Shown here: positions 11,693 to 26,075 of the stretch, piece by piece
How the letters are laid out: each line of letters starts with the position of its first letter
Numbering within the stretch: position 1 is the stretch's first letter
NCBI GenBank assembly: GCA_964347285.1
Contig: CAYFYE010000011.1
Coordinates: 1-37,042, forward strand
Origin: an uncultured Acidimicrobiia bacterium
GTDB lineage: Bacteria > Actinomycetota > Acidimicrobiia > Spongiisociales > JAOTWH01
Length of the DNA stretch: 37,042 nt
Reading direction: 5' to 3'
Program-made: the position numbers and the translations under genes
The notes under the pieces: model-generated
Database searches by the model: none
Told to the model about the DNA's origin: nothing
What the model saw: the letters and a program-made list of their open reading frames with translations, nothing else

Positions 11693-13324
11693 TCAGACCT
11701 CCAGCACGACCGGGAACACCACCGGCCGTCGCGACGTCTCGCGGCGGATGACCCGGGTGGTGGCCTCTCGGGCGTGGCGGCGGACGGTGTCGGCCTCACA
11801 GGGGCGCTCGAGCCGCTTCAGCTCTTCGGCGACTTCCCTGGCCGCCAGCTCGAGCACCGGCTCCGGCTCGTCGGCGAGGCCGTGACTGTCGAGCGTGGGA
11901 CCCACCAGGATCTCCCCGGTGTGGCCGTCCATCCCGATGGTGACGATCACCACGCCGTCGTCGGCGAGGTGGCGCCGGTCGCGCAGCACGCCGTGAGCGA
12001 CGTCGCCGAGGCCGCTGCCATCGAGGAACACATAGCCGGCCGGCACGGCCCCCGGCTCGTGGCGGATCTCGCCGTCGGCCAGCACGATGGCGTCGCCGTC
12101 CACGCACACGACCACCTCGGGAACTCTCATCTGGCGAGCCAATTTGGCGTGGGCCAACAGGTGGCGATACTCCCCGTGCACAGGAACCAACGCCTCGGGC
12201 CGGACCACGTTGAGGAAGGTGCGCAGCTCCTCCTGGGCCCCGTGTCCCGAGACGTGCACCTCCGCGTTGTGCCCGTGGTAGACGTGCACGCCCCGACGCA
12301 ACAAGCCGTTGATCACCCGACCCACCTTCACCTCGTTGCCGGGAATCGGAGTAGCCGAGATGATCACCGTGTCCCCGGCCTCGAGGTCCACCCAGCGGTG
12401 CTCGCCGGCCGCCATCAAGGACAGGGCGGCGAACGGCTCGCCCTGGCTGCCGGTGCAGATGATGGCTCCATCCTCGGGCGGCAAGGCAAGCACATCGTCG
12501 ACGGGCAGCAAGCGGTCTTGCGGGTAATCGATGATTCCGAGCTCACGGGCGAGCGCCGTGTTGCGTTCCATGGATCGACCTAGGAAGGCGAAGGAGCGGC
12601 CGGCGTCGACGACCGCGTTGACGATCTGCTGCACCCGATGTAGATGGCTGGAGAAGCATGCCGCCACCACGCGCCCCTGCGACTCGACGACCAGTTCGTA
12701 GAGCGGCTGGCTGAGCGATGACTCCGATGGGACGAAGCCGGGCCGCTCAGCGTTGGTGCTGTCGGCCAGCAGCAGGCGCACCCCGCTCGACGCCAGCTCG
12801 GCGAATGCGGGAAGGTCGGTGGGTCGAGCGTCGACCGGGGTCGGATCGAGCTTGAAGTCGCCCGAGTGGACGACGATCCCCTCGGGCGTATCGAACGCCA
12901 CTGCCGCCCCGTGCGGAACGCTGTGGCTCACCTGGATCAGCTGGAAACGGAACGGACCGGCCGTCACCCACTCCCCCAGCTCGACCGGTTGGAGCGTGGC
13001 CTCGACCTCCGCCTCCTCGATGCGGCTCCGAGCCAGTTCCAAGGACAGGGACGTCCCATACACGGGGACGTTGACGTCGCGCAGGAAGAAGGCCAGCGCA
13101 CCGACGTGATCCTCGTGGCCGTGGGTGAGCACCACGCACTCCACGGCGTGGGAACGCTCGACGACCGAAGAGAAGTCGGGGAGCACCAGGTCCACGCCGA
13201 GCATGTCGTCTTCGGGAAACATCAGGCCGCAGTCGATGAGGGCGATGCGGCCGTCGATCTCGATCGACGCGCAATTGCGCCCCACCTCGCCCAAGCCCCC
13301 CAAGAAAGTGATACGAACGCTCAT
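11693..13324 (-). CDS. rnj: Ribonuclease J
   Basis: LGGLGEVGRN, LTHGHEDHVGA, HSGDFKLD, TGSQGEP, HVSGH, PVHGE. Confidence 0.97.
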   Translation of the reverse strand: MSVRITFLGGLGEVGRNCASIEIDGRIALIDCGLMFPEDDMLGVDLVLPDFSSVVERSHAVECVVLTHGHEDHVGALAFFLRDVNVPVYGTSLSLELARSRIEEAEVEATLQPVELGEWVTAGPFRFQLIQVSHSVPHGAAVAFDTPEGIVVHSGDFKLDPTPVDARPTDLPAFAELASSGVRLLLADSTNAERPGFVPSESSLSQPLYELVVESQGRVVAACFSSHLHRVQQIVNAVVDAGRSFAFLGRSMERNTALARELGIIDYPQDRLLPVDDVLALPPEDGAIICTGSQGEPFAALSLMAAGEHRWVDLEAGDTVIISATPIPGNEVKVGRVINGLLRRGVHVYHGHNAEVHVSGHGAQEELRTFLNVVRPEALVPVHGEYRHLLAHAKLARQMRVPEVVVCVDGDAIVLADGEIRHEPGAVPAGYVFLDGSGLGDVAHGVLRDRRHLADDGVVIVTIGMDGHTGEILVGPTLDSHGLADEPEPVLELAAREVAEELKRLERPCEADTVRRHAREATTRVIRRETSRRPVVFPVVLEV

Positions 13325-14202
13325 GCCTGCTGGGCTCGGGCCAGGGCCTCCTTCACCGTCGCGACCGTGCCCGCCTGGGCCGGCACCAGTGGCAATCGCG
13401 GCTCACCCACCGATCCCCACACCTCGTTCATGGCCGCCTTCACCGGAATGGGATTGGGCTCGATGAAGAGGGCATCGAAGAGCGGAATCAGTGCCTGGTG
13501 GATCTTGGTCGCCGTTCCCAGATCCCCCTCCGCCGCAGCACTCACCATCCGTTTCACCTGCGGACCGGCCAGGTGCGACGCCACCGAGACCACACCGACT
13601 CCCCCGGCGACCATCATCGGCAGCGTCAGGTTGTCGGATCCCGAGTAGATAGCCAGAGCTTCGCCGCACGCTTCCCGCTCTTGGGCAGTGAAGCCGAGGT
13701 CCTCCACGGCGTCCTTGACCGCCACGATCCCCGGCGCCTCGGCGAGGCGGGCCAGGGTCTCCACCTCTATCCGCCGCGAGGTACGTCCGGGGATGTTGTA
13801 CAGGAGTACCGGCAGTTCGCTGGCCTCAGCGATGGCCATGAAGTGTCGGTACAAGCCCTCCTGAGGAGGCTTGGAGTAGTAGGGAGTCACCGCCATGACG
13901 GCGTCGCATCCCACCTCGGCCGCTCGGCGGGTGAGCTCGACCGATTCCCTGGTGTCGTAGGTCCCGGTGTTGGCCACGATGGTGGCCTTGCTGCCGACCG
14001 CTTCCACGACCGTGCGGAACATCGCCACTTTCTCATCGGACGACAGCACCGGCGACTCACCGGTCGTGCCCGCCACGACCAGGCCGTCGGAACCGTTGTC
14101 GACCAAGTACTCGGCCAGCTTCCACACCTGGCCGTAGTCCACCTCGCCGCCGGACTCGAATGGGGTGATCATGGCTGTGAGGACTTCACCGAACGGGGCC
14201 AC
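13321..14202 (-). CDS. dapA: 4-hydroxy-tetrahydrodipicolinate synthase
   Basis: TAMITPF, GTTGES, TPYYSKP, LYNIPGR, AVKDA, PNPIPVK. AAGGAGG RBS before GTG 14202. Confidence 0.96.
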   Translation of the reverse strand: MAPFGEVLTAMITPFESGGEVDYGQVWKLAEYLVDNGSDGLVVAGTTGESPVLSSDEKVAMFRTVVEAVGSKATIVANTGTYDTRESVELTRRAAEVGCDAVMAVTPYYSKPPQEGLYRHFMAIAEASELPVLLYNIPGRTSRRIEVETLARLAEAPGIVAVKDAVEDLGFTAQEREACGEALAIYSGSDNLTLPMMVAGGVGVVSVASHLAGPQVKRMVSAAAEGDLGTATKIHQALIPLFDALFIEPNPIPVKAAMNEVWGSVGEPRLPLVPAQAGTVATVKEALARAQQA

Positions 14203-14246
14203 CAGAACCTCCTTGATCCGTACTCGACGGTAGCAGCGGTAATCTC

Positions 14247-14273
14247 GGATCGTTCTGGCCCATTCAGGTGTTG
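14247..14273 (+). promoter_or_regulatory. Possible SigR/SigH-type ECF promoter (GGATC-N18-GTTG) of the thioredoxin gene
   Basis: Imperfect match to GGAAT-N18-GTT, 8 nt before the ATG of a thioredoxin, a classic target of this sigma class. Confidence 0.4.
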
Positions 14274-14281
14274 TGATTGCC

Positions 14282-15115
14282 ATGGAATTCGTCAAAGACG
14301 TCACTACCGAGGACTTCGGGCGGGCCGTCCTCCAGCGCAGTCACAAGATGCCCGTGGTCGTCGACTTCTGGGCCGAGTGGTGCGGCCCATGTCGCACCCT
14401 GGACCCGATGCTGGAGCGGGTGGCCCAAGAGCACGCCGGCGCCTTCGAGCTGGTGAAGGTCGATGTGGACCGCAATCAAGCTCTCGCTCGGCAATTCGGT
14501 GTCCAGGGCATACCGATGGTGCTCGGCTTTCGAGACGGGCAAGCCGTTTCTCGCTTCACCGGCGCCATACCCGAGGCGGCGCTGCGACAGTGGGTCGATG
14601 ACCTTCTCCCCTCGGAGGCCGACCTCGTGGTGGATCGAGCCCGGGACGCCGTCCTGGAGGGGGATCATGACCAGGGCGAGGCCTTGTTCCGGCAGGCCCT
14701 CGAGCACGACGACCGCCACCAGGACGCCGCCACCGGCCTCGCCTCTCTGCTGATCGCACGCGGCCAGACCGAGGAGGCCCTCATCGTGCTGGGCAAGCTG
14801 TCCCCCACTGCAGAGGTGGAGCGACTCCAGGCGGCCGCCCGAGTGACCGCTTCCCAAGAATCCGATGTCCCCGCCCTCGAAGCCAAGCTGGAGGCCGATG
14901 CTTCCGACCAGCAAGCCCGTTTGGAGCTGGGCCGGGCGCTGGCAGCCAAGGCCGAGTTCGAGCCCGCCCTGGACCACCTGCTCGCCGTGGTGGCATCGCG
15001 AGGCGACTCTCGGGAAGAGGCTCGTCGGGTTATGCTCGACATCTTCGACCTGCTCGGCGCCGACCATCCACTCGCCGTCGAGTATCGCCGCAAGCTCGCC
15101 AGCGAGCTGTTCTAG
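14282..15115 (+). CDS. Thioredoxin-TPR co-chaperone (YbbN/CnoX-like) with intact WCGPC
   Basis: VVVDFWAEWCGPC, GVQGIP, C-terminal TPR repeats ending YRRKLASELF. Confidence 0.92.
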   Translation: MEFVKDVTTEDFGRAVLQRSHKMPVVVDFWAEWCGPCRTLDPMLERVAQEHAGAFELVKVDVDRNQALARQFGVQGIPMVLGFRDGQAVSRFTGAIPEAALRQWVDDLLPSEADLVVDRARDAVLEGDHDQGEALFRQALEHDDRHQDAATGLASLLIARGQTEEALIVLGKLSPTAEVERLQAAARVTASQESDVPALEAKLEADASDQQARLELGRALAAKAEFEPALDHLLAVVASRGDSREEARRVMLDIFDLLGADHPLAVEYRRKLASELF

Positions 15116-15124
15116 GGACCGACC

Positions 15125-15160
15125 TCATCCTTTCGGAAAAGTCATCCTTTCGGAAAAGTC
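15125..15160. repeat. Exact 17-bp tandem duplication (TCATCCTTTCGGAAAAG x2 + TC)
   Basis: Copies at 15125-15141 and 15142-15158, read directly from the sequence. Confidence 0.9.
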
Positions 15161-15212
15161 CGGCGGTTGTGGCCGTGCGACATCACCTTGGTCGGTCGAA
15201 CCGGGAGCCCCC

Positions 15213-15251
15213 CAGGCGGGCCGGCCGCCCCTACCGAACCGGCCCCGCCTG
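15213..15251. terminator. GC-rich stem-loop between convergent genes
   Basis: CAGGCGGG-CCGG ... CCGG-CCCCGCCTG, 12-bp stem with a 1-nt bulge, just past the lipoprotein stop. Confidence 0.5.
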
Positions 15252-15258
15252 ATCCGTT

Positions 15259-16338
15259 CTAGGCAGCCGCGCTGGTCTCGCCGAGCCGCATGATCATGTC
15301 CAGCGACACGTCGAGCTTCATGGATCCGGAACCTTCCGGAGAGTCGAACTTCATGTCCATGACCATGTCGGTTGTACCGCTGGTACGGACCATCAGCCCG
15401 GCACCGGGATCGAACCACGTCGTCACCTCGATCGACGGAAACTCCATGGCGATATTGAATTCGATGCCCATGTTCTCGAACTCCCGCATGCCGAACTCGG
15501 CGAAGGCAAGGTCCGACTCGCTCATGCCGTAGGGGGCGGGATCCATCTCGGTGAACGCCTTGATCATGTCTTCGAGATCGAGCTCGATGGGGGCGACGTC
15601 GGTGCTCGATTCGATCACCAGCGTGTCGCGGCCCCCGACCTCCTCGGCTTCGACGACGCGGTGATGGGTCACCGCGGTTATCGCCCCGAAGCCGGGAATC
15701 TCTTGAGTGTTCTCCGTGCTCCACTCGGCCCCGATGCGCAGCTGCTCTTCGGGAAAGGTGGGACCGAACAGCGCCCCGAAGGTACCCAAGCCGGTCGGGT
15801 CGAACCCGCCGCCGAGACCGCTCAGGAACTCGGTGGGAACCGTGACATCACCCGAACGCATCTCGAGCACGTTGCCCTGCTCGTCGAGGACGACCACCAT
15901 CTCGGGGATCATCCCTTCGGTGCCGGCCAGCTCGGTGAGGTCGGAGGCAGGCAGCAGGTCGGCCAGGGACTCCCCATCGATGCTGAACTCGCCAAACGTG
16001 ACGTTGTCGATCGAAGGCTGCAGCAAAATCTCGACCGTGCCTGGGTCGGGGCCGGCCCCGACCGCGTAGTCGAGGGCCCCCTCGGCCTGCATGGTCATCG
16101 CCATGTTCTCGAAATCGCCCACCCCGCTGAAGTCGCCGTTGCCCTGCATCGACATGTCCATGCTGAAGTCGTAGCCCAGAGTGGTGTCGGGGTCGTAGGA
16201 GTAGGCGAGGGTCATTGCCTCCCCCTCGGTGCCCTGGCGAACCCCGGCATCGGCATCCCGACCGGCGCCCTCCCCCGAACCGCACGCCACAACCACCAGT
16301 GACAGGGCGGCCAATACCGCCGGGAATCGCACGCGCAT
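15259..16338 (-). CDS. Hypothetical acidic lipoprotein
   Basis: Signal peptide and lipobox (MRVRFPAVLAALSLVVVA-C), AAGGAGG RBS, acidic and beta-strand-like body. Confidence 0.85.
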   Translation of the reverse strand: MRVRFPAVLAALSLVVVACGSGEGAGRDADAGVRQGTEGEAMTLAYSYDPDTTLGYDFSMDMSMQGNGDFSGVGDFENMAMTMQAEGALDYAVGAGPDPGTVEILLQPSIDNVTFGEFSIDGESLADLLPASDLTELAGTEGMIPEMVVVLDEQGNVLEMRSGDVTVPTEFLSGLGGGFDPTGLGTFGALFGPTFPEEQLRIGAEWSTENTQEIPGFGAITAVTHHRVVEAEEVGGRDTLVIESSTDVAPIELDLEDMIKAFTEMDPAPYGMSESDLAFAEFGMREFENMGIEFNIAMEFPSIEVTTWFDPGAGLMVRTSGTTDMVMDMKFDSPEGSGSMKLDVSLDMIMRLGETSAAA

Positions 16339-16395
16339 GTCCCTCCTTGGGCTCGGTTCTCCTCGTTTCTTCGGACGGTTGAGGCCCGGACTTGA

Positions 16396-17157
16396 CTAGT
16401 CGAGGCCGAGGAGCCCCTCGAGGCCCACGGTGACTCCGGGTCGGTCGGCCACCTGCCGCACCGCCAGCAGAACTCCGGGAATGAACGATGCCCGGTCCGT
16501 CGTGTCGTGACGGATCGTGAGGATCTGGCCCTCGCCGCCCAGGATCACCTCCTGATGGGCCAGCAAGCCGGGTAGGCGCACTGCGTGCACCCGCACCTCG
16601 TCGACTGCGGCACCGCGGGCTCCGGGGACCAGTTCCTCCGACTCGGCGGCCCGGCGTTGGGCAGCGGCGCCGCCGATCCGGGCCGCAGTGGCCAATGCGG
16701 TGCCCGAAGGGGCATCGGCCTTGCGATCGTGGTGCAGTTCCACCACTTCGGCGGCCGAGAAATGGGGGGCAGCCTTCTCGGCGAAATACATCATCAGCAC
16801 CGCCCCGATCGAGAAGTTGGGGGCCACCATGCAGTTGGGCGGTCCCGGGCCCCACAGTTCCTCCAGCTGGGCGAGTCGGGCGGCATCGAAGCCCGAGGTT
16901 CCCACAACCGCGTGGACGCCGCGCTCTCGCCATGACGCCAGGTTGTCCATGACCACCGCCGGGTTGGTGAACTCGACCACGACCTCGGCGCCGGCCACGG
17001 CGGCCGGATCGTCCGCAACGGCGAGTCCGGCGATCTCGACTCCGCCGTGGTGGGGGTCGTACAGGGAAACCAGCTGCAGGTCGGAGGCCTGATCGACTGC
17101 CGCGGCGACCAGCCGACCCATCTGGCCGGCCGCTCCCGATACCGCCACCCGGATCAT
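16396..17157 (-). CDS. dapB: 4-hydroxy-tetrahydrodipicolinate reductase
   Basis: VSGAAGQMG, VVGTSG, APNFSIG, ELHHDRKADAPSGTA. Confidence 0.97.
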   Translation of the reverse strand: MIRVAVSGAAGQMGRLVAAAVDQASDLQLVSLYDPHHGGVEIAGLAVADDPAAVAGAEVVVEFTNPAVVMDNLASWRERGVHAVVGTSGFDAARLAQLEELWGPGPPNCMVAPNFSIGAVLMMYFAEKAAPHFSAAEVVELHHDRKADAPSGTALATAARIGGAAAQRRAAESEELVPGARGAAVDEVRVHAVRLPGLLAHQEVILGGEGQILTIRHDTTDRASFIPGVLLAVRQVADRPGVTVGLEGLLGLD

Positions 17158-18404
17158 GCGACGAACTCGCCCAGGTCCTCGGCCTGGAAGGGACCGGTGG
17201 CGCCGATGACTCGCGGGGTGCCGAATACTTCTGCAGCGAGAACGGCCACATCACCCCCGGTCACCGCCTCCACTCGCTCGACGATCTCGTCCACGCTGAG
17301 GTGCTCCACCCCGGTCAGCTCATTGCGGCCCAGCCGGGACATCCGGCTGTTGGCATCTTCCATCGCAAGGGCCAGGCTTCCCTTCGTGTGGCCCTTGGCC
17401 CGCTCCAGCTCCTCCTCGGTGATGCCGTCGGCGGCGACTTTGTCCAGCTCGTCGTTGACGAGCCTCAGCACATCAGCAGTCTGGCTGGGGGTCGTCCCCA
17501 CATAGACCCCGTAGGCCCCGGAGTCGGCATGGGGCCAGCGGAACATGTAGACCGCGTAAGCCAGGCCCCGCTTCTCGCGGATTTCACGAAAGAGGCGCGA
17601 GGACATCCCGCCGCCCATGACGTGGGCGAGAACGCCGAACGCAAAACGGCGCTCGTCGTCCCTGGTCAGGCCCTCGCCTCCCAGCACCAGGTGAGCTTGC
17701 TCGGTGTCGCGATGCTCCACCTTGACGCGCGGTTCCACCGGAGCCGGGCGGTGGCTGTGGTCCACCTCGTCTCCCGAGAATCCATCGAAGCGCTCCGCGA
17801 TCTCCTCGACCACGGCTTGGTGGTCGAGGTTGCCGGTCACCGCCACGACGAGCGAGGGCCCGCCATAGCGTCGGCGCCAGTAGTTGGCGATGGTGTCCCG
17901 GCTCATCTCGGCAATGGAATCCTTGGTACCCAGTACCGGAAACTCGAGGAGGTGACCTTCCCACAAAGCTCGGGCAAAACGTTCGTAGGCCACGTCGGTG
18001 GGATCGTCCTCATTCATGTTGATTTCTTCCAATACCACATGGCGCTCGGAGTCGATTTCGTCCTGGCGAAACGCCGGGCGCTGGATCATCTCGGCCAGCA
18101 GCTCCACCCCGAGGGGAAGGTCGGCGTCACGCATCCTGGCCCAATAGCACGTGTACTCCTTCGACGTGAACGCATTGGATTGGGCGCCGACGGCGTCGAA
18201 CGCTTGGGCTATGTCCTGGGCGCTGAGTTCCTCCGTCCCCTTGAAGAGCAGGTGCTCGAGGAAGTGGGAACAGCCGGCTTCGACGGGAGTCTCGTCCCTG
18301 CTGCCGGTATCGACCCAGCAGCCGATTGCGATGGAGCGCACTTCGGGCATCTGCTCGGTGATGACACGGATTCCGCCCGGCAGCGTGGTCAGTTCGTAGT
18401 GCAC
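17154..18404 (-). CDS. M16 (pitrilysin) family zinc peptidase
   Basis: HFLEHLLFKGT (HxxEH), NAFTSKEYTCY, GGGMSSRLFREIREKRGLAY. Confidence 0.95.
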   Translation of the reverse strand: MHYELTTLPGGIRVITEQMPEVRSIAIGCWVDTGSRDETPVEAGCSHFLEHLLFKGTEELSAQDIAQAFDAVGAQSNAFTSKEYTCYWARMRDADLPLGVELLAEMIQRPAFRQDEIDSERHVVLEEINMNEDDPTDVAYERFARALWEGHLLEFPVLGTKDSIAEMSRDTIANYWRRRYGGPSLVVAVTGNLDHQAVVEEIAERFDGFSGDEVDHSHRPAPVEPRVKVEHRDTEQAHLVLGGEGLTRDDERRFAFGVLAHVMGGGMSSRLFREIREKRGLAYAVYMFRWPHADSGAYGVYVGTTPSQTADVLRLVNDELDKVAADGITEEELERAKGHTKGSLALAMEDANSRMSRLGRNELTGVEHLSVDEIVERVEAVTGGDVAVLAAEVFGTPRVIGATGPFQAEDLGEFVA

Positions 18405-20143: not shown

Positions 20144-20569
20144 TCAGTCGATCTCGGGGGGCCGGCGCAGCTGCTTGATTTGAGCCCGGCGGCGCTTCTT
20201 CTCCACACGCCGTCGCTTGGCCGCCGGCCCGGGGCGAGTGGGGCGCCGCCGCTTGGGTGGGATGAGGGCACTTCCCACGATCTCGGCCAAGCGCCGACGA
20301 GCGGTTTGTCGATTGCGCCACTGGGAACGGGATTCGTCGACGATCACCGCCACCACCCCGTCCTGGACCCGGGTCCCCAGCCTGGCGATCAGGCCGGAAC
20401 GGAGGTCGTCATCGACCGCCTCGCTGGAACCGAGGTCCCATCGCAATTCGGCACGGGTCGCCGAGCGATTGGCGTGCTGACCGCCGGGCCCGCCCGACGT
20501 TGTGAAGCGCCACTCGAGCTCTCGCTCGGGAATGACGAGTTTGTCGCCCACCACCAGGTCCTCGCTCAT
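20144..20569 (-). CDS. arfB: Alternative ribosome rescue peptidyl-tRNA hydrolase ArfB
   Basis: SGGPGGQHAN (GGQ), RSQWRNR, basic tail RRPTRPG...KKRRRAQIKQLR. Confidence 0.93.
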   Translation of the reverse strand: MSEDLVVGDKLVIPERELEWRFTTSGGPGGQHANRSATRAELRWDLGSSEAVDDDLRSGLIARLGTRVQDGVVAVIVDESRSQWRNRQTARRRLAEIVGSALIPPKRRRPTRPGPAAKRRRVEKKRRRAQIKQLRRPPEID

Positions 20570-20660
20570 ACCTTCATTATGCGGCAGCAACACCCCCAAA
20601 CCTTGGTACTCGGTCGATATGCCTTCGGTCTTGTCTGGTGATGCGGCACAATGGGGGGTT

Positions 20661-22766
20661 ATGCGCGCTCGCAACGAGACGATCCTCGCTTCGGTCCTGC
20701 CGCCCGAGGAGCGGACGATCGAGGCGGTCGTGGCCCGCTACCAGCGGGTGGCCCCCGCCGTCACCCGATTCGCTCGCTCGCTGTCGGGCAACGACGAGCT
20801 GGTGGTCCGCCTCGGATCGAAGACGGCGGCCTCTGATCACGAAATCGTGGTCGATCCCGGCGTATTCCAAGCCGCCTATACCCGGTCGGCGCCGGTCACC
20901 CCGCCCGAGGTGGCGCTGGCGACGGCTCTACACGAGGTCGTCCATCTGGTGGCCACCGACCTCGACGAGCGCCGTCCCCTCCCCAGGGAGTGGCTTCCCG
21001 ACGATTATCAAGGGGAGGTATCACTGGAGCCGCTGTCTCTGCTCGATGCGCTCGGCGAGGCGGGCGGACCGGCCGCCGAAGCGCTCTTCTTTACTCTCGA
21101 GGACGCCCGCCAGGAGCTGCAGCTGTTCGTCGGCTACGACGGAGCGCGTTCGGTCCTCGCCGATCTCTATCTCTCCTCGGTATCCGCCGCCATGGAGGAA
21201 GCCCGGCCGCTGGGCCAGTTCGCCCTGAGCGCATTCTTGGTGACGGCCCGTTACCTGTCCAAGGAGCATCTGCAGAAGCGGACCGAACCGCACGTCGCTA
21301 CGGCGCTGGACGACGCCGTGCCCTTCCTCGACGAGGCTCGAACGGCAGGCGACGCCTGGGAGGTGGCCGGCCTCGCTCTCCAGCTCCTGGCGGTGGCTCG
21401 CCTCCACGGATTGGTGTCGGATGCCGCCGAAAACGAGACGGTCGGCCAAGCCGAGCGCCGCGAGGCCGACGAAGCCGAGGCCCTGGCCGAGGGTATCGAT
21501 GCCGTCCGCATCGTCAGTCCCATCCTGCGCGACTCGGTCGGCTACGAGGAGACCCGTGGGTCGGCCGAGGCGCTCGCGGCCGAGCACGGCCGTACCGGTG
21601 AGGTCGATCAAGCCGGCGATGCCAGCACCGATCAGATCGTTCGCATCTCCGAAGCCCCCACCGTGTACCTGCCGTCGGGCCAGGGAGGCAAGCTCCTGGT
21701 AGGACGCATTCCCAGTCGCTTCAGCCGGTTCGCCCCCCAAGGCCGCACCGCCCTGGCCGAGACCGCTCGGCGTTGGGGAGTGGCGCAACGCCGGGTGTCC
21801 GGTGAGCTGTATCCGCTCTTCTTGGCCAATCAGCGGCGTGGCCTTCGGTCCGGCTACGACGCCGGGGACTTGTCGCCCCACGCCGCCCTCTTGATTGGTG
21901 CCGGACTCTACGAGCGCATGTTCGAGCGACGGGCTGTGGCCACCCGTCGTTCGTATGCGGTGAGCCTTCTGATCGACGGCTCGGCCAGCATGCTGCAACC
22001 GCGCGGCCTCGACCAGGCTCATCGCCGCCCCTGGGCCATGGCCGCCGCCACGCTCGGAGCGTGGACCTTGGCCCGCCTGGCCGAAGAGCTGCAGGTCGAG
22101 TTCGAGGTGGCCCTGTTCAACCGTTCGTTCGCCGCCACCCAAGACGACAGCGAGCAGTCGTTCGTCGGGCGCCTCAACACGACCCACGGCGAGCTGCGCC
22201 GCACCCGGGGTGGTGCGGCCGGGCGGCTCACCCGCACCGTCAACCACTATCTGATCAAGACTTTCGACGACCGGTGGCGCAATGCCGAGGATCTCCTCGC
22301 CGGGCTGTTCTGGACGGCGGCCGTGCCCAAGGAGGCGGCCGCCGAGGCTCGCCGCTATCCCGATCAGGCGCCGCCTGTGTCCATGTTCACCAAGGCCGCC
22401 AACGTCGACGAGTTCAACGTGGGTTACGCCGCCGAGCGCCTCGGCTCACGCCGAGCTCCGTCCCGCATGCTGGTCGTGCTCGCCGACGGGATGACCAGGG
22501 GTTCGGTGGCCGCCCTGGCGGAGGCGGTCGCCGAAGTGGAGCATTCCGGTACCACGGTGCTCGGCATCGGCATCGGCGACACCACCGTGGAGACCGCCTA
22601 CCGTCGCAACGAGGTCGTTGAACGTCCCGAGGCTCTGGCCCAGGCGATGGTCGAAGGAGTGCGGGGCGCCCTGGCACGGGCCCTGGCGGTTTGGGGTGGA
22701 GACACCTGGTGGGGCCATTCCTCGGAGCGGACCCCCTACCATCTGCCGACCGCAAGGAGAGCCTGA
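20661..22766 (+). CDS. VWA-domain protein with N-terminal HEXXH/EDAR region (CobT/NorD-like architecture)
   Basis: LHEVVH at 20931-20945, LEDAR at about 21096, MIDAS LLIDGSASM at about 21966, VVLADG, VLGIGIG. Start chosen at MRARNET. Confidence 0.85.
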   Translation: MRARNETILASVLPPEERTIEAVVARYQRVAPAVTRFARSLSGNDELVVRLGSKTAASDHEIVVDPGVFQAAYTRSAPVTPPEVALATALHEVVHLVATDLDERRPLPREWLPDDYQGEVSLEPLSLLDALGEAGGPAAEALFFTLEDARQELQLFVGYDGARSVLADLYLSSVSAAMEEARPLGQFALSAFLVTARYLSKEHLQKRTEPHVATALDDAVPFLDEARTAGDAWEVAGLALQLLAVARLHGLVSDAAENETVGQAERREADEAEALAEGIDAVRIVSPILRDSVGYEETRGSAEALAAEHGRTGEVDQAGDASTDQIVRISEAPTVYLPSGQGGKLLVGRIPSRFSRFAPQGRTALAETARRWGVAQRRVSGELYPLFLANQRRGLRSGYDAGDLSPHAALLIGAGLYERMFERRAVATRRSYAVSLLIDGSASMLQPRGLDQAHRRPWAMAAATLGAWTLARLAEELQVEFEVALFNRSFAATQDDSEQSFVGRLNTTHGELRRTRGGAAGRLTRTVNHYLIKTFDDRWRNAEDLLAGLFWTAAVPKEAAAEARRYPDQAPPVSMFTKAANVDEFNVGYAAERLGSRRAPSRMLVVLADGMTRGSVAALAEAVAEVEHSGTTVLGIGIGDTTVETAYRRNEVVERPEALAQAMVEGVRGALARALAVWGGDTWWGHSSERTPYHLPTARRA

Positions 22767-23755
22767 TGCCCGACACGGTCACCTTCACCGACCCCTCTGG
22801 GGAATGCAAGCCCATCGAACTGGAGACGTTCGTACTCCCCAAGGGCATAGCCGATCGGGCTCAGCGCAGGGAACGCATCCCCGACCCCGACCCGTACTAC
22901 GTGGACCTGGGCATGCTCTTCCGGATGGCCCAGCTCGAAGACACTCGCCGCCGGCACTTCGCCGAAGTCCCTCTCCACCTGGCACTCCGAGGCCACATGG
23001 GCACCGGCAAGGACCACGACCTCGAGCAGTTCGCCGCCCTGCTCCACCTCCCCTACTACCGCATCCCCCTGACCGGCGAAGTCCGGGACATCACCCTGAT
23101 CGGCTCGGTGAAACTCTACGGGGACGGCCGGGGGGGCACCGAGAGCCGCTGGGAGGATGGCGACATCACCAGGGCGCTGCGCGGGCCGGCGCTCCTCAAT
23201 CTCTCCGAGTTGAACGCAGCCGGAGCCGAGACCCTGTTCGCACTGCACGGCCTGCTCGACCGATACCAGGCACTGGGTTTGCCCACCGGTGAAACGGTCC
23301 ACCTGCGCGACGATGTGCGCCTGTTCGGCACGATGAACCCCACCGACCTTCGCGACTACGCCGGCACCCAGACCCTCAACAAGGCGTTCGCCGACCGATG
23401 GGTCATCTGGGAGAAATCCTTCCCCACCGAGGAGCAGGTCGCCGAGATGCTGCACCGGCGCTACCCCGACCTCAAGGACGAGTTCATCGACGTGATCGGG
23501 CGGCTCGCCATCGAAGTCAACAACTCATTCACCGCCCCCGACGTGCGGACCCGGGTGGAGACGCCGATGAGCCTGCGCACCGTCCTCGACCGCGTCCCGG
23601 CCGGCCTCCATATCTACCAGGACGCCGACGATCCGCTGCGCCGATCCTGGGAGGAGTTCGTCCTTCCCCGCATCGATCCCTACGACCGCGACCACTACGA
23701 GACGGTGTGGAGCGCGGTGGCCCGCACCGGGCCCTCCGGCCCACCGTTCGGATGA
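22766..23755 (+). CDS. MoxR/CbbQ/CobS-like AAA+ ATPase with atypical Walker motifs
   Basis: LRGHMGTGKD, WEDGDITRAL, LLNLSELNAA, GTMNP, YAGTQTLNKAFADRW, MSLR. TGATG overlap with the VWA gene and AAGGAG RBS. Confidence 0.9.
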   Translation: MPDTVTFTDPSGECKPIELETFVLPKGIADRAQRRERIPDPDPYYVDLGMLFRMAQLEDTRRRHFAEVPLHLALRGHMGTGKDHDLEQFAALLHLPYYRIPLTGEVRDITLIGSVKLYGDGRGGTESRWEDGDITRALRGPALLNLSELNAAGAETLFALHGLLDRYQALGLPTGETVHLRDDVRLFGTMNPTDLRDYAGTQTLNKAFADRWVIWEKSFPTEEQVAEMLHRRYPDLKDEFIDVIGRLAIEVNNSFTAPDVRTRVETPMSLRTVLDRVPAGLHIYQDADDPLRRSWEEFVLPRIDPYDRDHYETVWSAVARTGPSGPPFG

Positions 23756-23792: not shown

Positions 23793-24866
23793 ATGAGCAA
23801 ACGACCCGAGCGTGGCTACGACCTCGGCGACCCCGAGCTGGACCGCAAGCTCGAGGAGCTGGTTGCGGCCGTCATCGAGAAGCGGGGCGACCACACCAAC
23901 CACACCCACGATGTCGACCTGATCGGGGAGCTCCTGGTGAGTGGCCTGAAGATGCTGAAGGACGAGACCCCGCGAGCCGACCTCAAGCTCGCCAACAGTG
24001 CCCTCAAGGAGATGCGCTATTCATTTCTCATCTTCAACCAGTATCGGGCCATCCCCAAGGTGACGATCTTCGGCTCGGCCCGTACCCCGGCCGAGGATCC
24101 CAACTACCAGCTGGCCGCCGAGTTTGCCCGGGAGATGGCGGACAACCGGGGCTGGATGGTCATCACCGGCGCCGGCCCGGGGATCATGGAGGCCGGCAAC
24201 CTGGGCGCCGGCGAGGCCGGGTTCGGCGTCAACATCCGCCTCCCCTTCGAGTCGGAGCCCAATCCCTACCTGCACGAGAGCCGGACCATCAACTACAAGT
24301 ATTTCTTCACCCGAAAACTCATGTTCGTCAAGGAGTCCGATGCCTTCGTCATCTTCCCGGGCGGGTTCGGGACCCAGGACGAGCTCTTCGAGCTGTTGAC
24401 CCTCACTCAGACCGGCAAGAGCAACATGCACCCGATCGTGCTGATGGAAGCCGAGGGCACGAACTACTGGAAGGCTTGGCGTCACTTCACCGGTGAGCTG
24501 GAAGATCAGGGGATGATCTCCCCGGAGGACAAGCACCTGTTCAAGTTCACCTCCGACGTCGAAGAGGCCGCCCAGGAGATATGCGACTTCTACCTCAACT
24601 ACCACTCACAGCGCTTCGTTCGGGGTCGGCTGGTGCTGCGCCTCCGCCACCCCACCACCCCCGGGCTGATCGAGGAGCTGAACGAGGACTTCGCCGACAT
24701 CTTGACCTCGGGCCGGATCGAGGCCATCGAAGCTACCGATGACGAGATCCGTGACGACGACAACGTCGATCTGTTCCGCATCAGCATGGATTTCAACCGG
24801 CGCCACTTCGGCCGGCTTCGTCAGCTCATCAACCGGCTCAATCAGATCCTCGGCTCTCCTTCCTGA
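23793..24866 (+). CDS. LOG family (TIGR00730-like) nucleotide phosphoribohydrolase, long form
   Basis: VTIFGSART, ITGAGPGIMEA, YFFTRKLMFVK, PGGFGTQDE. Confidence 0.93.
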   Translation: MSKRPERGYDLGDPELDRKLEELVAAVIEKRGDHTNHTHDVDLIGELLVSGLKMLKDETPRADLKLANSALKEMRYSFLIFNQYRAIPKVTIFGSARTPAEDPNYQLAAEFAREMADNRGWMVITGAGPGIMEAGNLGAGEAGFGVNIRLPFESEPNPYLHESRTINYKYFFTRKLMFVKESDAFVIFPGGFGTQDELFELLTLTQTGKSNMHPIVLMEAEGTNYWKAWRHFTGELEDQGMISPEDKHLFKFTSDVEEAAQEICDFYLNYHSQRFVRGRLVLRLRHPTTPGLIEELNEDFADILTSGRIEAIEATDDEIRDDDNVDLFRISMDFNRRHFGRLRQLINRLNQILGSPS

Positions 24867-24906
24867 CCAGGAACGGACTACCAGCCCAGGCCTAGAATGC
24901 GCGGTT

Positions 24907-25644
24907 GTGCATGAAATACTCGCCGACGTGGTGGCCGAACAGCAGGCTCTGGACCAGTTCCTGCAAGGCATAGGCGACCGCGACTGGCTGAAGCGGACCC
25001 CGGTGAACCGCTGGAACGTTCGCCAGCACATCGCCCACCTGGCGACCTTCGAGGAGTATGCCCGCGACGCTCTCGAGAGCCGGGGATCGCGCCTCTCTGA
25101 AGCACTCGACTTCGCCACGTTCGACGAATTCGTGAACGACACCGCCGACCGGGGCCCGGCCCGATCTCAAGAGGTCATCGAGTGGTGGAGGCTGGCTCGG
25201 GCAGCCGTCGTCGACTCGCTGAGCCGCAAAGATCCCGGCGAGCGCGTGCCTTGGTTCGCCGGCAAGATGAGCGCCAAGACCTTCGCCACGTCGCGCCTGG
25301 TCGACACGTGGCTCCATGCTCTCGATATCCACACCACGTTCGGCTCCGAACCCGAGGAGCTGGATCGCCTGCGACATGTGGCCTGGTTCGGCTGGAAGTC
25401 GCTCCCCTATGCGTTCGAGGTCAACGGAGAGGACTACAAGGAGCCGGTCCGGGTCGAGCTGATCGGGCCCGGCTACGCCAAATGGGTCTTCGGTCCGGAG
25501 GACGCCGAGCACGTGATCAAGGGCAAGGCGTCCGAGTGGTGCCGGGTGTGTGTCGGCCGCCTCGACGCCGACAAGGCACGCAGCCTCGTGCCCGAGGGCA
25601 AAATGGCGGAACTCGCCCTGCGGGTGGCCCGCACCTACGTGTGA
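24907..25644 (+). CDS. Mycothiol-dependent maleylpyruvate isomerase-like (MDMPI, DinB-fold) metal-binding protein
   Basis: WNVRQHIAHL, VPWFAGKMSAKTFATSRLVDTWLHALDI, LRHVAWFG, WVFGPEDA. Leaderless-type GTG after TAGAAT. Confidence 0.85.
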   Translation: MHEILADVVAEQQALDQFLQGIGDRDWLKRTPVNRWNVRQHIAHLATFEEYARDALESRGSRLSEALDFATFDEFVNDTADRGPARSQEVIEWWRLARAAVVDSLSRKDPGERVPWFAGKMSAKTFATSRLVDTWLHALDIHTTFGSEPEELDRLRHVAWFGWKSLPYAFEVNGEDYKEPVRVELIGPGYAKWVFGPEDAEHVIKGKASEWCRVCVGRLDADKARSLVPEGKMAELALRVARTYV

Positions 25645-26075
25645 CGGCGTCCCGCTTCGACCCCGGACCCATCCACCTGCTCCGACTGGGCCCCGGCGAG
25701 GACCTGGTGGGGAGCATCACCGCCTACGCCAAGATCCACGACATTCGTTCCGCCTCGGTCACCCTCCTCGGGGCGGTTCGCTCCGCCTCGTTGCGTTACT
25801 TCGACCAGCACCGCAAGGACTACCGCGACTTCCGCATCGCCCGCCCCCTCGAGGTCACCTCCGGAATCGGCAACATATCGATCCTGGACGACGAGCCCTT
25901 CCTCCACGCCCACGCCACCTTCTCCGACGAGGACGGCCAGACCTTCTCGGGCCATATCAACTTCGGGACCGAGGTCTTCCACATCGAGGCTACGATCCAA
26001 GAGCTCGATGGGGTGGCCCCGGTCCGTGAGATGGAAGAGCTGACCGGCTTGATGGTGTGGAGCATGGACCGGTAA
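25641..26075 (+). CDS. PPC/DUF296 domain protein
   Basis: LLRLGPGEDL, LEVTSGIGNIS, PFLHAHATFS...SGH. GTGA overlap with the upstream stop. Confidence 0.88.
   Translation: MTASRFDPGPIHLLRLGPGEDLVGSITAYAKIHDIRSASVTLLGAVRSASLRYFDQHRKDYRDFRIARPLEVTSGIGNISILDDEPFLHAHATFSDEDGQTFSGHINFGTEVFHIEATIQELDGVAPVREMEELTGLMVWSMDR

What the first reader, a model, noticed from the sequence alone, without database searches (positions are those of the whole stretch)
22991..23215. AAA+ ATPase with an apparent reciprocal swap of Walker A and Walker B Mg2+ ligands (GK-D and S-E)
Seen: Walker A is GHMGTGK-D (GAC at 23012-14), where P-loop NTPases have Thr or Ser. Walker B is LLNL-S-E-LN (TCC at 23204-06), where MoxR/CbbQ/dynein-type AAA+ proteins have hhhh-D-E-hN. 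The lysine, catalytic glutamate, sensor-1 (GTMNP), Arg-finger region (AFADRW) and sensor-2 (SLR) are all intact. Established: the Walker A Thr/Ser and Walker B Asp are hydrogen-bonded and together position Mg2+. Inference: both changing in mirror fashion suggests a compensatory inversion that keeps the enzyme active with inverted metal-site geometry, rather than decay. I know of no described MoxR-type subfamily like this.
Basis: partly seen in the sequence, partly recalled or inferred. Interest (0 to 1): 0.8.

Follow-up and report, generated by a model that had tools for sequence, protein, structure and literature searches.

The report
AAA+ motor with swapped magnesium-site residues
A conserved ATP-driven motor protein of uncultured Acidimicrobiia bacteria has exchanged the two residues that normally hold the magnesium ion of ATP while keeping every other catalytic residue, so it is a natural test of what those near-universal residues do.

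Summary
The gene at 22766-23755 encodes a 329-aa AAA_5 (CobS/MoxR-type) ATPase with GHMGTGK-D83 (GAC 23012-14) and LLNL-S147-E148 (TCC 23204-06).

It is not drift or a sequencing error.
- All 120 closest database homologues carry D and S, as do 45 of 45 genomic loci (44 genomes, two orders, 57-100% identity).
- Synonymous codons turn over at both positions.
- K82, E148, N191, R211 and R271 stay invariant.

Every relative outside this clade (at most 43% identity) has GK[ST] and [DE]E. Among 514 aligned AAA_5 domains, Asp at K+1 occurs only together with Ser-Glu. This is a single evolutionary event, so it is not statistical covariation.

The change is wider than a two-residue swap: M78, H84, D85, E87 and N145 are also clade-specific.

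The gene is translationally coupled to a CobT-like HExxH-VWA partner. No CobN was found, so the client is unknown.

Activity and metal-site geometry were not tested; no model coordinates or co-folding were available.

I found no description in print. Asp at K+1 does have a precedent in HD-Pnk kinases (GKD with N-x-T-N).

This scan has already found the same swap on at least eight other genomes.

Verdict: a real new variant of a known kind, of moderately high interest.

The parts
22766..23755 (+). CobS/MoxR-type AAA+ ATPase gene, 329 aa (P0001), stop codon included
   Evidence: Pfam AAA_5 at 2.5e-12, 47.4 bits against a cut-off of 22. 120 homologues of 329-339 aa begin at this start. AF2 model has pLDDT 89.3. 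Foldseek top hits are CbbQ and NorQ.
22991..23014 (+). Walker A / P-loop, G76-H-M-G-T-G-K82-D83. The K+1 residue is Asp (GAC 23012-14) where P-loop NTPases have Ser or Thr.
   Evidence: GHMGTGKD in 120 of 120 homologues. Asp in 45 of 45 loci, with GAC 32 and GAT 13.
23015..23026 (+). First turn of helix alpha-1, H84-D85-L86-E87. These are clade-specific polar or acidic replacements of E/S/T, A/L/G/F and R/K/M/A in canonical relatives.
   Evidence: Invariant in 37 of 37 clade members and absent from 8 of 8 outgroup sequences.
23189..23215 (+). Walker B strand and following turn, A142-L-L-N145-L-S147-E148-L-N150. Ser (TCC 23204-06) sits at the Walker B Asp position, Asn145 replaces a hydrophobic residue at D-2, and the catalytic Glu148 is kept.
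   Evidence: Ser in 45 of 45 loci with four TCN codons, and Asn145 in 44 of 45. Aligned with D or E of 8 of 8 outgroups. Strand 142-147 in the model.
23336..23338 (+). Sensor-1 Asn191
   Evidence: Invariant in alignment A2, 45 of 45 sequences. Corresponds to N186 of Brucella CobS (passage).
23396..23398 (+). Arg211, the presumed trans-acting arginine finger
   Evidence: Invariant in A2. Corresponds to R-finger R210 of Brucella CobS.
23576..23578 (+). Sensor-2 Arg271 (in S-L-R)
   Evidence: Nearly invariant in A2. Corresponds to R271 of Brucella CobS.
20661..22766 (+). Partner gene: a CobT-like adaptor of 701 aa, with an N-terminal HExxH region and a C-terminal VWA domain
   Evidence: Lies immediately upstream in 45 of 45 loci by tblastn. 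The start at 20661 fits the homologues, and the longer ORF from 20502 overlaps the divergent RF-1-domain gene. PHROG CobT-type hits. Weak profile hit to CobT structures at 6.3e-05. Pfam VWA is below cut-off, 17.2-17.4 against 23.8 bits.
20931..20945 (+). HEVVH (HExxH) motif of the partner
   Evidence: H91, E92 and H95 are invariant in 16 of 16 partners.
21975..21989 (+). DGSAS, the D-x-S-x-S part of the MIDAS motif in the partner's VWA domain
   Evidence: D439, S441 and S443 are invariant in 16 of 16 partners.
22754..22768 (+). Translational-coupling junction: AAGGAGAG ribosome-binding-like site followed by TGATG, where the partner's stop TGA (22764-66) overlaps the ATPase's ATG (22766-68)
   Evidence: In 16 of 16 long loci the partner's stop lies from 14 nt before the chosen ATPase start (a 13-nt gap) to 7 nt past it (an 8-nt overlap).

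Best explanation
The gene encodes a hexameric-type AAA+ motor of the CobS/MoxR (AAA_5) group. It works with the CobT-like HExxH-VWA adaptor encoded just upstream, on a client that is still unknown. It is not the cobaltochelatase.

In the common ancestor of two Acidimicrobiia orders the Mg2+-holding dyad of the ATP site was rebuilt. The carboxylate moved from the Walker B strand (Asp to Ser147) to the P-loop (Ser/Thr to Asp83). This came with changes at M78, H84, D85, E87 and N145.

I infer that the protein still binds Mg-ATP and hydrolyses it:
- Asp83 ligates Mg2+ directly through one carboxylate oxygen, in place of the Ser/Thr hydroxyl.
- The Ser147 hydroxyl donates a hydrogen bond to Asp83 or to a Mg-bound water.
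- Net charge and the combined side-chain length across the contact are both preserved.
- Glu148 activates the water.
- Asn191, Arg211 (from the neighbouring subunit) and Arg271 act as in CobS.

Shown: the substitutions, their fixation under purifying selection, the canonical state of all outgroups, the fold, and the coupled partner. Inferred: nucleotide binding, hydrolysis, oligomer state and the exact metal geometry.
For: Fixation:
- D83 and S147 occur in 120 of 120 closest homologues at 74-100% identity.
- They occur in 45 of 45 loci from 44 genomes of two orders, down to 57% identity. Both sites use synonymous codons.

Catalytic apparatus kept:
- G76, G81, K82, E148, N191 and R211 are invariant and R271 nearly so, across the clade plus 8 canonical relatives.
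- They map one-to-one onto the ATP-pocket residues named for Brucella CobS: K77/S78, D141/E142, N186, R210 and R271 (passage).

Derived state:
- All 8 nearest single-domain relatives have GK[ST] plus [DE]E. So do 2 of 2 same-phylum outgroup genomes.
- Of 387 non-clade AAA_5 domains, none has Asp at K+1.

Fold:
- AF2 pLDDT is 89.3. The P-loop and Walker B blocks score 91-96 with canonical strand and helix ends, and both beta-hairpin inserts are present.
- Foldseek matches CbbQ and NorQ at probability 1.00 and target-normalised TM 0.80-0.84.

Selection and importance:
- The ATPase is 57-83% identical where its partner is only 28-64%.
- The pair is kept in genomes of about 1 Mb.

Chemical plausibility:
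- HD-Pnk-type HD+AAA_33 kinases carry GKD, with N-x-T-N in place of the D-x-T-N Walker B.
- The family is described as a purified, biochemically analysed end-healing kinase (passage in PMC6097658).
Against: - No assay, no coordinates and no co-folding with ATP/Mg were available, so neither binding, hydrolysis nor geometry is shown.
- The main text of Kozlova et al. (PMC9599734) says replacing either residue abolishes activity in tested P-loop NTPases. Their supplement says AAA+ proteins with a non-Ser/Thr K+1 residue (torsinA, DnaC; Asn) have very low ATPase activity and may be switches.
- A metal-bound carboxylate cannot serve as the buried proton trap that paper proposes.
- The helix behind the P-loop has become much more acidic (D83, D85, E87). 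That could disfavour triphosphate binding.
- Another clade-specific acid, E105 after strand beta-2, could be the real substitute for the Walker B Asp, as in MglA or Clp1. I could not place it in space.
- The two columns changed once, so their coupling is an inference from one event.
- That the biochemically tested Runella HD-Pnk itself carries GKD comes only from earlier scan notes. The paper was not held.
Confidence: 0.6

Rival explanations
1. Nucleotide-state switch instead of a motor. The protein binds Mg-ATP tightly through the inner-sphere Asp83 but hydrolyses it very slowly, or only when the partner or client triggers it. It would act like torsinA or DnaC, as a conformational latch for the VWA adaptor.
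For: The only AAA+ precedents for a non-Ser/Thr K+1 residue listed by Kozlova et al. (torsinA, DnaC; Asn) have very low ATPase activity and are discussed as possible switches (supplement passage). Mutating either dyad residue is reported to abolish activity (main text). A direct carboxylate ligand would be expected to raise Mg affinity and slow product release (inference).
Against: TorsinA has also lost the catalytic Glu. Here Glu148, sensor-1 N191 and the Arg finger R211 are invariant in 45 of 45 aligned sequences, which is hard to explain if hydrolysis did not matter. CobS, the nearest solved relative, is reported as a highly active ATPase (passage).
Confidence: 0.25
2. Active ATPase with altered metal or nucleotide preference. 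The carboxylate at K+1 and the extra acidic and His residues (H84, D85, E87) retune the site for another divalent ion (Mn2+, Ca2+, Fe2+ or Co2+), or couple metal sensing to the motor. That would be relevant to a chaperone family that inserts metals.
For: There are seven clade-specific substitutions around the pocket, not two, and they include a His and two more acids on the first turn of alpha-1. Related MoxR/VWA systems (CobST, NorQD) drive metal insertion (abstracts).
Against: This is purely inferential. K+2 and K+3 side chains normally point away from the metal site (recalled, not tested). No metal-handling genes were noted among the neighbours.
Confidence: 0.1
3. Pseudo-ATPase. The P-loop no longer binds nucleotide, and the protein is only a scaffold for the VWA partner.
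For: Both 'strictly conserved' dyad residues are gone, and the P-loop helix is unusually acidic.
Against: The GxxGxGK glycines and lysine, Glu148, Asn191, Arg211 and Arg271 are all invariant over a divergence of 57-100% identity. The motifs are the most conserved parts of the protein. Dead AAA+ domains in the giant relatives show scattered, variable replacements instead (K/R-S-N, H-S-N, T-S-S).
Confidence: 0.04
4. Artefact or private drift of this one assembly.
For: None was found.
Against: The same residues occur in 120 of 120 database homologues from several sources and in 45 of 45 loci from 44 genomes, with different codons.
Confidence: 0.01

Closest known systems
CobS/CobT, motor and adaptor of the aerobic cobaltochelatase CobNST (PDB 9ujv, 9uka; bioRxiv 10.64898/2026.07.21.739949 and 10.64898/2026.10.09.757910, abstracts and passages read)
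   Same: It is the best single-domain solved relative by profile (6.8e-48). It has the same layout of Walker A, Walker B Glu, sensor-1 Asn, Arg finger and sensor-2 Arg at nearly the same residue numbers, and H2 and PS1 beta-hairpin inserts. The adjacent partner has a CobT-like N-region and a MIDAS VWA domain.
   Different: CobS has K77-S78 and D141-E142; this protein has K82-D83 and S147-E148. It scores 47.3 bits against a cut-off of 558.55 for the CobS equivalog. The gene order is reversed, with the adaptor first. No CobN was found in 5 of 5 genomes tested. The partner carries an invariant HExxH.
NorQ/NorD and CbbQ/CbbO (MoxR AAA+ with VWA partners)
   Same: They are the top structural matches: 6l1q, the 9qh4-9qh9 series and 5c3c, at probability 1.00 and target TM 0.80-0.84. 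They share the AAA+ plus VWA two-gene logic, and the VWA engages the ring pore (passage).
   Different: Sequence identity is 18-24%. Their Walker motifs are canonical, as for all non-clade domains I aligned (the NorQ and CbbQ sequences themselves were not aligned here). Their clients are known (cNOR, Rubisco); here the client is unknown.
Midasin/Rea1-type giant multi-AAA proteins
   Same: Their summed sequence scores are the highest after the clade itself. Individual AAA_5 domains are 27-34% identical.
   Different: They are eukaryote-type giant proteins with six fused domains. Their active domains are canonical ([ST] plus [DE] in 366 of 387 non-clade domains).
TorsinA and DnaC (AAA+ with Asn at K+1)
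   Same: Both are AAA+ proteins whose Walker A K+1 residue is not Ser or Thr (supplement of PMC9599734).
   Different: They keep the Walker B Asp, so the carboxylate has not moved. TorsinA also lost the catalytic Glu. Their ATPase activity is very low.
HD-Pnk family (HD phosphoesterase fused to a D-x-T-N-type P-loop polynucleotide kinase; Munir & Shuman 2017, paper not held, known here from reference lists and PMC6097658)
   Same: Walker A ends in GKD and the Walker B acid is gone. GLPGMGKD was found in 77 HD+kinase-type ORFs, and 57 of the 70 ORFs of typical length have hhh-N-A-T-[ND] by pattern. AAA_33 was found in 3 of 3 scanned and HD in 2 of 3. D-x-T-N is the Walker B of that kinase family (passage). 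This looks like an analogous relocation of the carboxylate in an enzyme family reported as active.
   Different: It belongs to a different P-loop class (kinase, not an ASCE/AAA+ hydrolase). It transfers phosphate to a 5'-OH instead of activating water, has Asn and not Ser at Walker B, and has no catalytic Glu or Arg finger in trans. That the assayed Runella enzyme has GKD rests on earlier scan notes only.
MglA GTPase and Clp1 polynucleotide kinase (Walker B Asp replaced, acid supplied from a neighbouring strand)
   Same: They are natural cases where the Walker B Asp was lost and another acidic residue compensates (supplement of PMC9599734).
   Different: There the K+1 Ser/Thr is kept and the new acid sits on the adjacent strand. 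Here the new acid is the K+1 residue itself.

Membership tests
AAA+ ATPase, AAA_5 (dynein-related/MoxR/CobS group, PF07728) | Pfam AAA_5 match above the gathering score | tested here: met
   2.5e-12, 47.4 bits against a cut-off of 22, residues 96-236 of the 354-aa ORF.
AAA+ ATPase, AAA_5 (dynein-related/MoxR/CobS group, PF07728) | Fold of MoxR-type AAA+ with helix-2 and pre-sensor-1 beta-hairpin inserts | tested here: met
   Foldseek to CbbQ and NorQ at probability 1.00 and target TM 0.80-0.84. The hairpins at 113-119/125-131 and 169-171/177-179 are in the expected places, as described for CobS.
Canonical P-loop NTPase active site | Walker A GxxxxGK[S/T] | tested here: not met
   GHMGTGK-D; Asp in 120 of 120 homologues and 45 of 45 loci.
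Canonical P-loop NTPase active site | Walker B hhhh-D (or Glu) followed by the catalytic Glu | tested here: not met
   L-L-N-L-S-E. Ser is at the Asp position and Asn at D-2. The catalytic Glu148 is present.
Canonical P-loop NTPase active site | P-loop Lys, sensor-1 Asn, Arg finger and sensor-2 Arg present | tested here: met
   K82, N191 and R211 are invariant and R271 nearly invariant in A2. They map to the CobS pocket residues.
Canonical P-loop NTPase active site | Mg-dependent ATP binding and hydrolysis | not testable with these tools
CobS (cobaltochelatase subunit, TIGR01650 equivalog) | Score above the curated equivalog cut-off | tested here: not met
   47.3 bits against 558.55.
CobNST cobaltochelatase system | CobN (PF02514) encoded in the genome | tested here: not met
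   0 of 5 genomes: G000 (90% complete), two same-order genomes and two genomes of about 1 Mb. The control search detected the family in 5 of 14 reference genomes.
MoxR-type AAA+ / VWA two-component chaperone | Adjacent VWA-domain partner with a MIDAS motif | tested here: met
   The partner lies upstream in 45 of 45 loci. D-x-S-x-S is invariant in 16 of 16. The stop and start overlap or nearly abut. The Pfam VWA hit itself is below cut-off.
MoxR-type AAA+ / VWA two-component chaperone | Physical complex of ATPase ring and VWA partner | not tested
Anti-phage defence or phage-borne cobST cassette | Match to defence-system models, or location on phage or viral contigs | tested here: not met
   PADLOC gave 0 families for ATPase, partner and LOG. 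Phage records gave 63 matches, all below 60% identity and the 15 listed at 25-30%. No relative was found in IMG/VR.

The most novel reading that the evidence does not exclude
The clade is a working AAA+ motor in which the Mg2+ ion is held by an inner-sphere P-loop carboxylate, and the Walker B position supplies only a hydroxyl. If so, the 'universal' [Ser/Thr]K+1-AspWB dyad is not required in that arrangement for activated ATP hydrolysis. The proton-relay model built on it (Kozlova et al. 2022) would then have a natural counter-example, or at least a natural test. The same relocation of the carboxylate has arisen independently in HD-Pnk kinases.
Probability: 0.35. Interest if true: 0.8.

Novelty: new variant of a known kind. 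Interest (0 to 1): 0.62.

Why it matters
The Walker A Ser/Thr and the Walker B Asp are treated as the two strictly conserved, catalytically essential residues of all P-loop NTPases. One current model makes their hydrogen bond the universal proton trap of catalysis (PMC9599734).

Here a whole bacterial lineage has kept, under strong purifying selection, a motor in which the two residue types have changed places while the rest of the catalytic machinery is intact. Wild type, the two single revertants and the double revertant form a ready-made double-mutant cycle to test what the dyad does: metal ligation, proton relay or both.

The motor-adaptor pair is also conserved in genomes of about 1 Mb and has no known client, so it marks an unexplored housekeeping function in abundant uncultured Acidimicrobiia.

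Tried and rejected
- **Sequencing error or private drift:** rejected.
- **Cobaltochelatase:** rejected. No CobN in 5 of 5 genomes, and the CobS equivalog score is far below cut-off.
- **Phage cassette or defence system:** rejected.
- **Intermediates (GKD with DE, or GK[ST] with SE):**
  - None among 514 aligned domains from the 270 proteins retrieved.
  - None in the identity gap between 57% and 43% in the 1.84-billion-protein representative library. Only 19 proteins reach E <= 1e-30, and they are clade members, fragments or giant multi-domain proteins.
  - None in 301 class-level or 401 phylum-level genomes.
- **LOG gene as third component:** not adopted. It lies downstream in 30 of 38 same-order loci (some flanks are only 1.5 kb) but in 0 of 7 loci of the 1-Mb family.
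- **RNA evidence:** no RNA holder was listed.
- **Rfam:** no match in the window.
- **Complex prediction for ATPase plus partner:** not available.
- **Munir & Shuman 2017:** not held under DOI or PMC id.
- **Aligning HD-Pnk kinase domains with this genome's own AAA_33 hits:** uninformative. Those hits are adenylate-kinase-like and APS-kinase-like.
- **ESM Atlas:** gave only AAA_5 clusters.
- **Whether clade-specific E105, R107 and D108 face the active site or the pore:** could not be decided without coordinates.
Full report
**Observation**

The stretch 22991-23014 reads GGC CAC ATG GGC ACC GGC AAG GAC (G-H-M-G-T-G-K-D). The stretch 23192-23215 reads CTC CTC AAT CTC TCC GAG TTG AAC (L-L-N-L-S-E-L-N).

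The mechanical ORF runs from a TTG at 22691 (354 aa). All 120 listed homologues are 329-339 aa and start at the MPDT-type start. The gene is therefore 22766-23755, 329 aa. Its ATG overlaps the TGA of the upstream gene (TGATG), and AAGGAGAG lies just before it.

In gene numbering the residues are K82, D83, N145, S147, E148, N191 (sensor 1), R211 (in AFADRW) and R271 (in SLR).

**Family**

- Pfam gives AAA_5 (2.5e-12, 47.4 bits, cut-off 22).
- NCBIfam gives only a weak CobS match (47.3 bits against a cut-off of 558.55).
- PHROGs gives the phage CobS-type family phrog_249 (2.1e-25).
- A profile of the family finds midasin, then CobS (9ujv, 6.8e-48), CbbQ and NorQ among solved structures.
- An AlphaFold2 model built on 45 sequences is confident (pLDDT 89.3, pTM 0.87). 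Lys82 opens helix 82-93 and Ser147 ends strand 142-147. Two beta-hairpins sit where CobS has its helix-2 and pre-sensor-1 inserts.
- Foldseek ranks CbbQ (6l1q) and NorQ (9qh4-9qh9) first, at probability 1.00 and target-normalised TM 0.80-0.84.
- The ATP-pocket residues named for Brucella CobS are Walker A G71-S78, Walker B D141-E142, sensor-1 N186, R-finger R210 and sensor-2 R271 (passage). They correspond one-to-one to G76-D83, S147-E148, N191, R211 and R271 here.

**Drift or a fixed feature?**

- All 120 closest database proteins (74-100% identity, several sources, labelled Acidimicrobiia or Actinomycetota where named) have GHMGTGKD. By HMM alignment they all have K-D...S-E.
- I fetched 45 genomic loci from 44 genomes: 37 genomes of the window's own order and 7 of a second family with genomes of about 1 Mb. 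Identity ranges from 57% to 100%.
- All 45 loci encode Asp at position 83 (GAC 32, GAT 13) and Ser at position 147 (TCC 18, TCG 14, TCA 7, TCT 6). Asn145 is present in 44 of 45.
- Synonymous turnover with an unchanged residue is the signature of purifying selection.
- Across the clade plus 8 canonical relatives, G76, G81, K82, E148, N191 and R211 are invariant and R271 nearly so.

**Relatives and the covariation test**

- In the 50%-identity representative library (1.84 billion proteins) only 19 proteins reach E <= 1e-30. They are one full-length clade representative, clade fragments and giant multi-AAA proteins. The next single-domain relatives are at most 43% identical.
- All 8 of the nearest single-domain relatives that I aligned with the clade (A2) have GK[TS] and [DE]E; a ninth, P0219, aligned in A1, is also canonical. 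So do the two nearest genomes found elsewhere in the phylum (39% identity).
- I aligned every AAA_5 domain in the 270 proteins retrieved. Of these, 514 domains have both columns aligned.
  - 127 have D/S, and all of them are clade members.
  - Among the 387 others (119 proteins), 366 have [ST] with [DE] and 6 have Asn with Asp.
  - None has Asp at K+1. The three with Ser at the Walker B position lack the catalytic Glu and look degenerate.
- The two states therefore never occur apart in what I could examine.
- The change happened once, on the stem of one clade. This is perfect association from a single event, not repeated covariation.
- The 270 proteins are the best hits of two searches, not a random sample.

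**The remodelling is wider than a swap**

Several positions are invariant in 37 of 37 clade members and never show that residue in the 8 outgroups. They cluster at the pocket:

| Position | Clade | Outgroups |
|---|---|---|
| 78 | M | T |
| 83 | D | T/S |
| 84 | H | E/S/T |
| 85 | D | A/L/G/F |
| 87 | E | R/K/M/A |
| 145 | N | I/L/V/M (at D-2 of the Walker B strand) |
| 147 | S | D/E |

A second block follows strand beta-2: E105, V106, R107, D108, T110 and S114. Without coordinates I cannot say whether this block faces the active site or the pore.

Several outgroups use Glu instead of Asp at the Walker B position (hhhhEE). This subgroup therefore already shows some plasticity there.

**Context**

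- The upstream gene (20661-22766, 701 aa) lies immediately upstream in 45 of 45 loci. In 16 of 16 long loci its stop lies from 14 nt before the chosen ATPase start (a 13-nt gap) to 7 nt past it (an 8-nt overlap).
- This partner has an invariant HExxH (HEVVH, 20931-45) and an invariant D-x-S-x-S MIDAS motif (DGSAS, 21975-89).
- It has PHROG CobT-type hits and a weak profile hit to CobT structures (6.3e-05). Pfam VWA is below cut-off.
- It evolves faster (28-64% identity) than the ATPase (57-83%).
- CobN was not found in 5 of 5 genomes tested, including single-contig genomes. The pair is therefore not a cobaltochelatase.

Distribution:

| Sample | Result |
|---|---|
| Class-level sample, 301 genomes | The family is in G000, in 76 of 76 other genomes of its order, and in 58 of 65 genomes of the 1-Mb family, many of which are incomplete. 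|
| Remaining 18 hits in that sample | Weak (E of 7.7e-9 or worse, 26-31% identity). |
| Phylum-level sample, 401 genomes | Only the own-order genomes and the two canonical outgroups reach 1e-12. |

One positive genome in the class tally (G254) is unpublished, and nothing depends on it.

- The gene is single-copy in G000.
- It has no close relatives in phage records (63 matches, all below 60% identity, the 15 listed at 25-30%) or in IMG/VR, and no PADLOC hit.
- Downstream neighbours in the window are a LOG-family gene, an MDMPI_N/DinB gene and a PCC-domain gene.
- MDMPI_N and PCC also lie downstream in a locus of the 1-Mb family. LOG does not (0 of 7 loci).
- I treat all of these as neighbours, not components.

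**Literature**

Kozlova et al. 2022 (PMC9599734; abstract, section 4.2.8 and supplement passages read):
- They call [Ser/Thr]K+1 and AspWB the only strictly conserved proton-capable residues of the two motifs.
- They say replacement of either abolishes activity.
- Their listed exceptions are:
  - Gly at K+1 in NMP kinases.
  - Asn at K+1 in torsinA and DnaC, which have very low ATPase activity.
  - Glu at Walker B in dethiobiotin synthetase.
  - Asn at Walker B in Clp1, with a Glu on the next strand.
  - Thr at Walker B in MglA, with an Asp on the next strand.
- In the passages I read, no Asp/Ser exchange is mentioned.

Full-text searches for GKD with Walker A and AAA+, and for Acidimicrobiia with MoxR or VWA, gave nothing relevant.

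- A pattern scan found GLPGMGKD in 77 ORFs. Of these, 70 have typical length (about 350-400 aa), and 57 of the 70 have hhh-N-A-T-[ND] by pattern.
- Of three ORFs scanned, three have AAA_33 and two have HD.
- D-x-T-N is the Walker B of that kinase family (passage in PMC7363723).
- HD-Pnk of Runella is described as a purified, biochemically analysed 5'-OH kinase (passage in PMC6097658).
- The original paper was not held. That the assayed enzyme itself has GKD therefore rests on the scan notes.
- This makes an inner-sphere Asp at K+1 chemically credible. It concerns a kinase, not an AAA+ hydrolase.

**Mechanism**

My best reading (0.6) is a working CobS-like motor whose Mg2+ is ligated directly by the Asp83 carboxylate. 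Ser147 would supply the hydroxyl partner. Charge and combined side-chain length across the contact are conserved. Glu148, Asn191, Arg211 in trans and Arg271 would act as usual, and the ring would act on the VWA adaptor as in CobST and NorQD. All of this is inference from conservation and homology.

Rivals:
- A slow nucleotide switch, as in torsinA or DnaC (0.25).
- Retuned metal preference (0.1).
- A pseudo-ATPase (0.04).
- An artefact (0.01).

**Limits**

- Model coordinates are not exposed.
- No RNA run was listed.

**Earlier work in this scan**

The scan has reported the same swap, the CobS/CobT-like pairing and the HExxH partner on at least eight other genomes. My tests agree with those notes but were run independently on this window.

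Noticed in passing
window 20144-20674 (-): An RF-1-domain gene (GGQ motif, ArfB/peptidyl-tRNA-hydrolase-like; Pfam RF-1 at 6.4e-14) is transcribed divergently from the partner gene. Its 5' end overlaps the long ORF from 20502, which argues for the partner's start at 20661.
   Followed up: partly
window 23793-24866 (+): A LOG-family (Lysine_decarbox / SLOG cluster 4) gene lies 38 nt downstream of the ATPase, with an N-terminal extension of about 85-130 aa ahead of its Pfam domains. It lies downstream in 30 of 38 same-order loci but in 0 of 7 loci of the 1-Mb family, so it is probably only a neighbour.
   Followed up: partly
window 24739-26075 (+) and L041:9272-11201: MDMPI_N/DinB-fold and PCC-domain genes follow the pair both in the window and in a locus of the distant 1-Mb family (there with BtpA between them). 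This is synteny kept across orders, and no functional link is shown.
   Followed up: partly
proteins P0147 (2600 aa) and P0263 (1959 aa): Giant multi-AAA_5 relatives whose repeated domains (4 and 2) have GK-N with D-E. This is Asn at K+1, as in torsinA and DnaC, and could be a stepping stone from Thr through Asn to Asp.
   Followed up: no
P0175, P0200, P0203, P0219; L056:5299-5910; L057:6078-6731: The nearest canonical relatives, including two Actinomycetota genomes, have Glu instead of Asp at the Walker B acid position (hhhh-E-E). The focal VWA query found no match in either of the two Actinomycetota loci by tblastn; the neighbourhoods of the database proteins were not examined.
   Followed up: partly
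L058-L137 (e.g. L121:1811-2920, L070:1739-2929, L100:2111-3217): HD + AAA_33 kinase ORFs of about 370 aa in Bacteroidota, Proteus, Providencia, Xenorhabdus and Escherichia carry GLPGMGKD, with N-A-T-N where D-x-T-N kinases have their Walker B Asp. This looks like an independent relocation of the metal-site carboxylate.
   Followed up: partly
proteins P0125, P0128, P0131: Database entries join a partner C-terminus or unrelated sequence to part of the ATPase, or run out of frame mid-gene. They are probably frameshifted or chimeric metagenome gene calls around the overlapping stop and start.
   Followed up: no
window 22766-23755, residues 105-114: A second clade-specific block (E105, V106, R107, D108, T110, S114) follows strand beta-2, where outgroups have x-T-T-x-D/E...K. 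Whether it faces the pore and partner or the ATP site is unknown.
   Followed up: no
window 13321-18404 (-); L041:1198-5227: The pair sits in core-chromosome surroundings. An M16 peptidase gene lies upstream in the window (17154-18404; the ORFs below it, down to 13321, were not scanned), and DapB, DapA and FtsK lie upstream in the 1-Mb family. This is consistent with vertical inheritance.
   Followed up: partly
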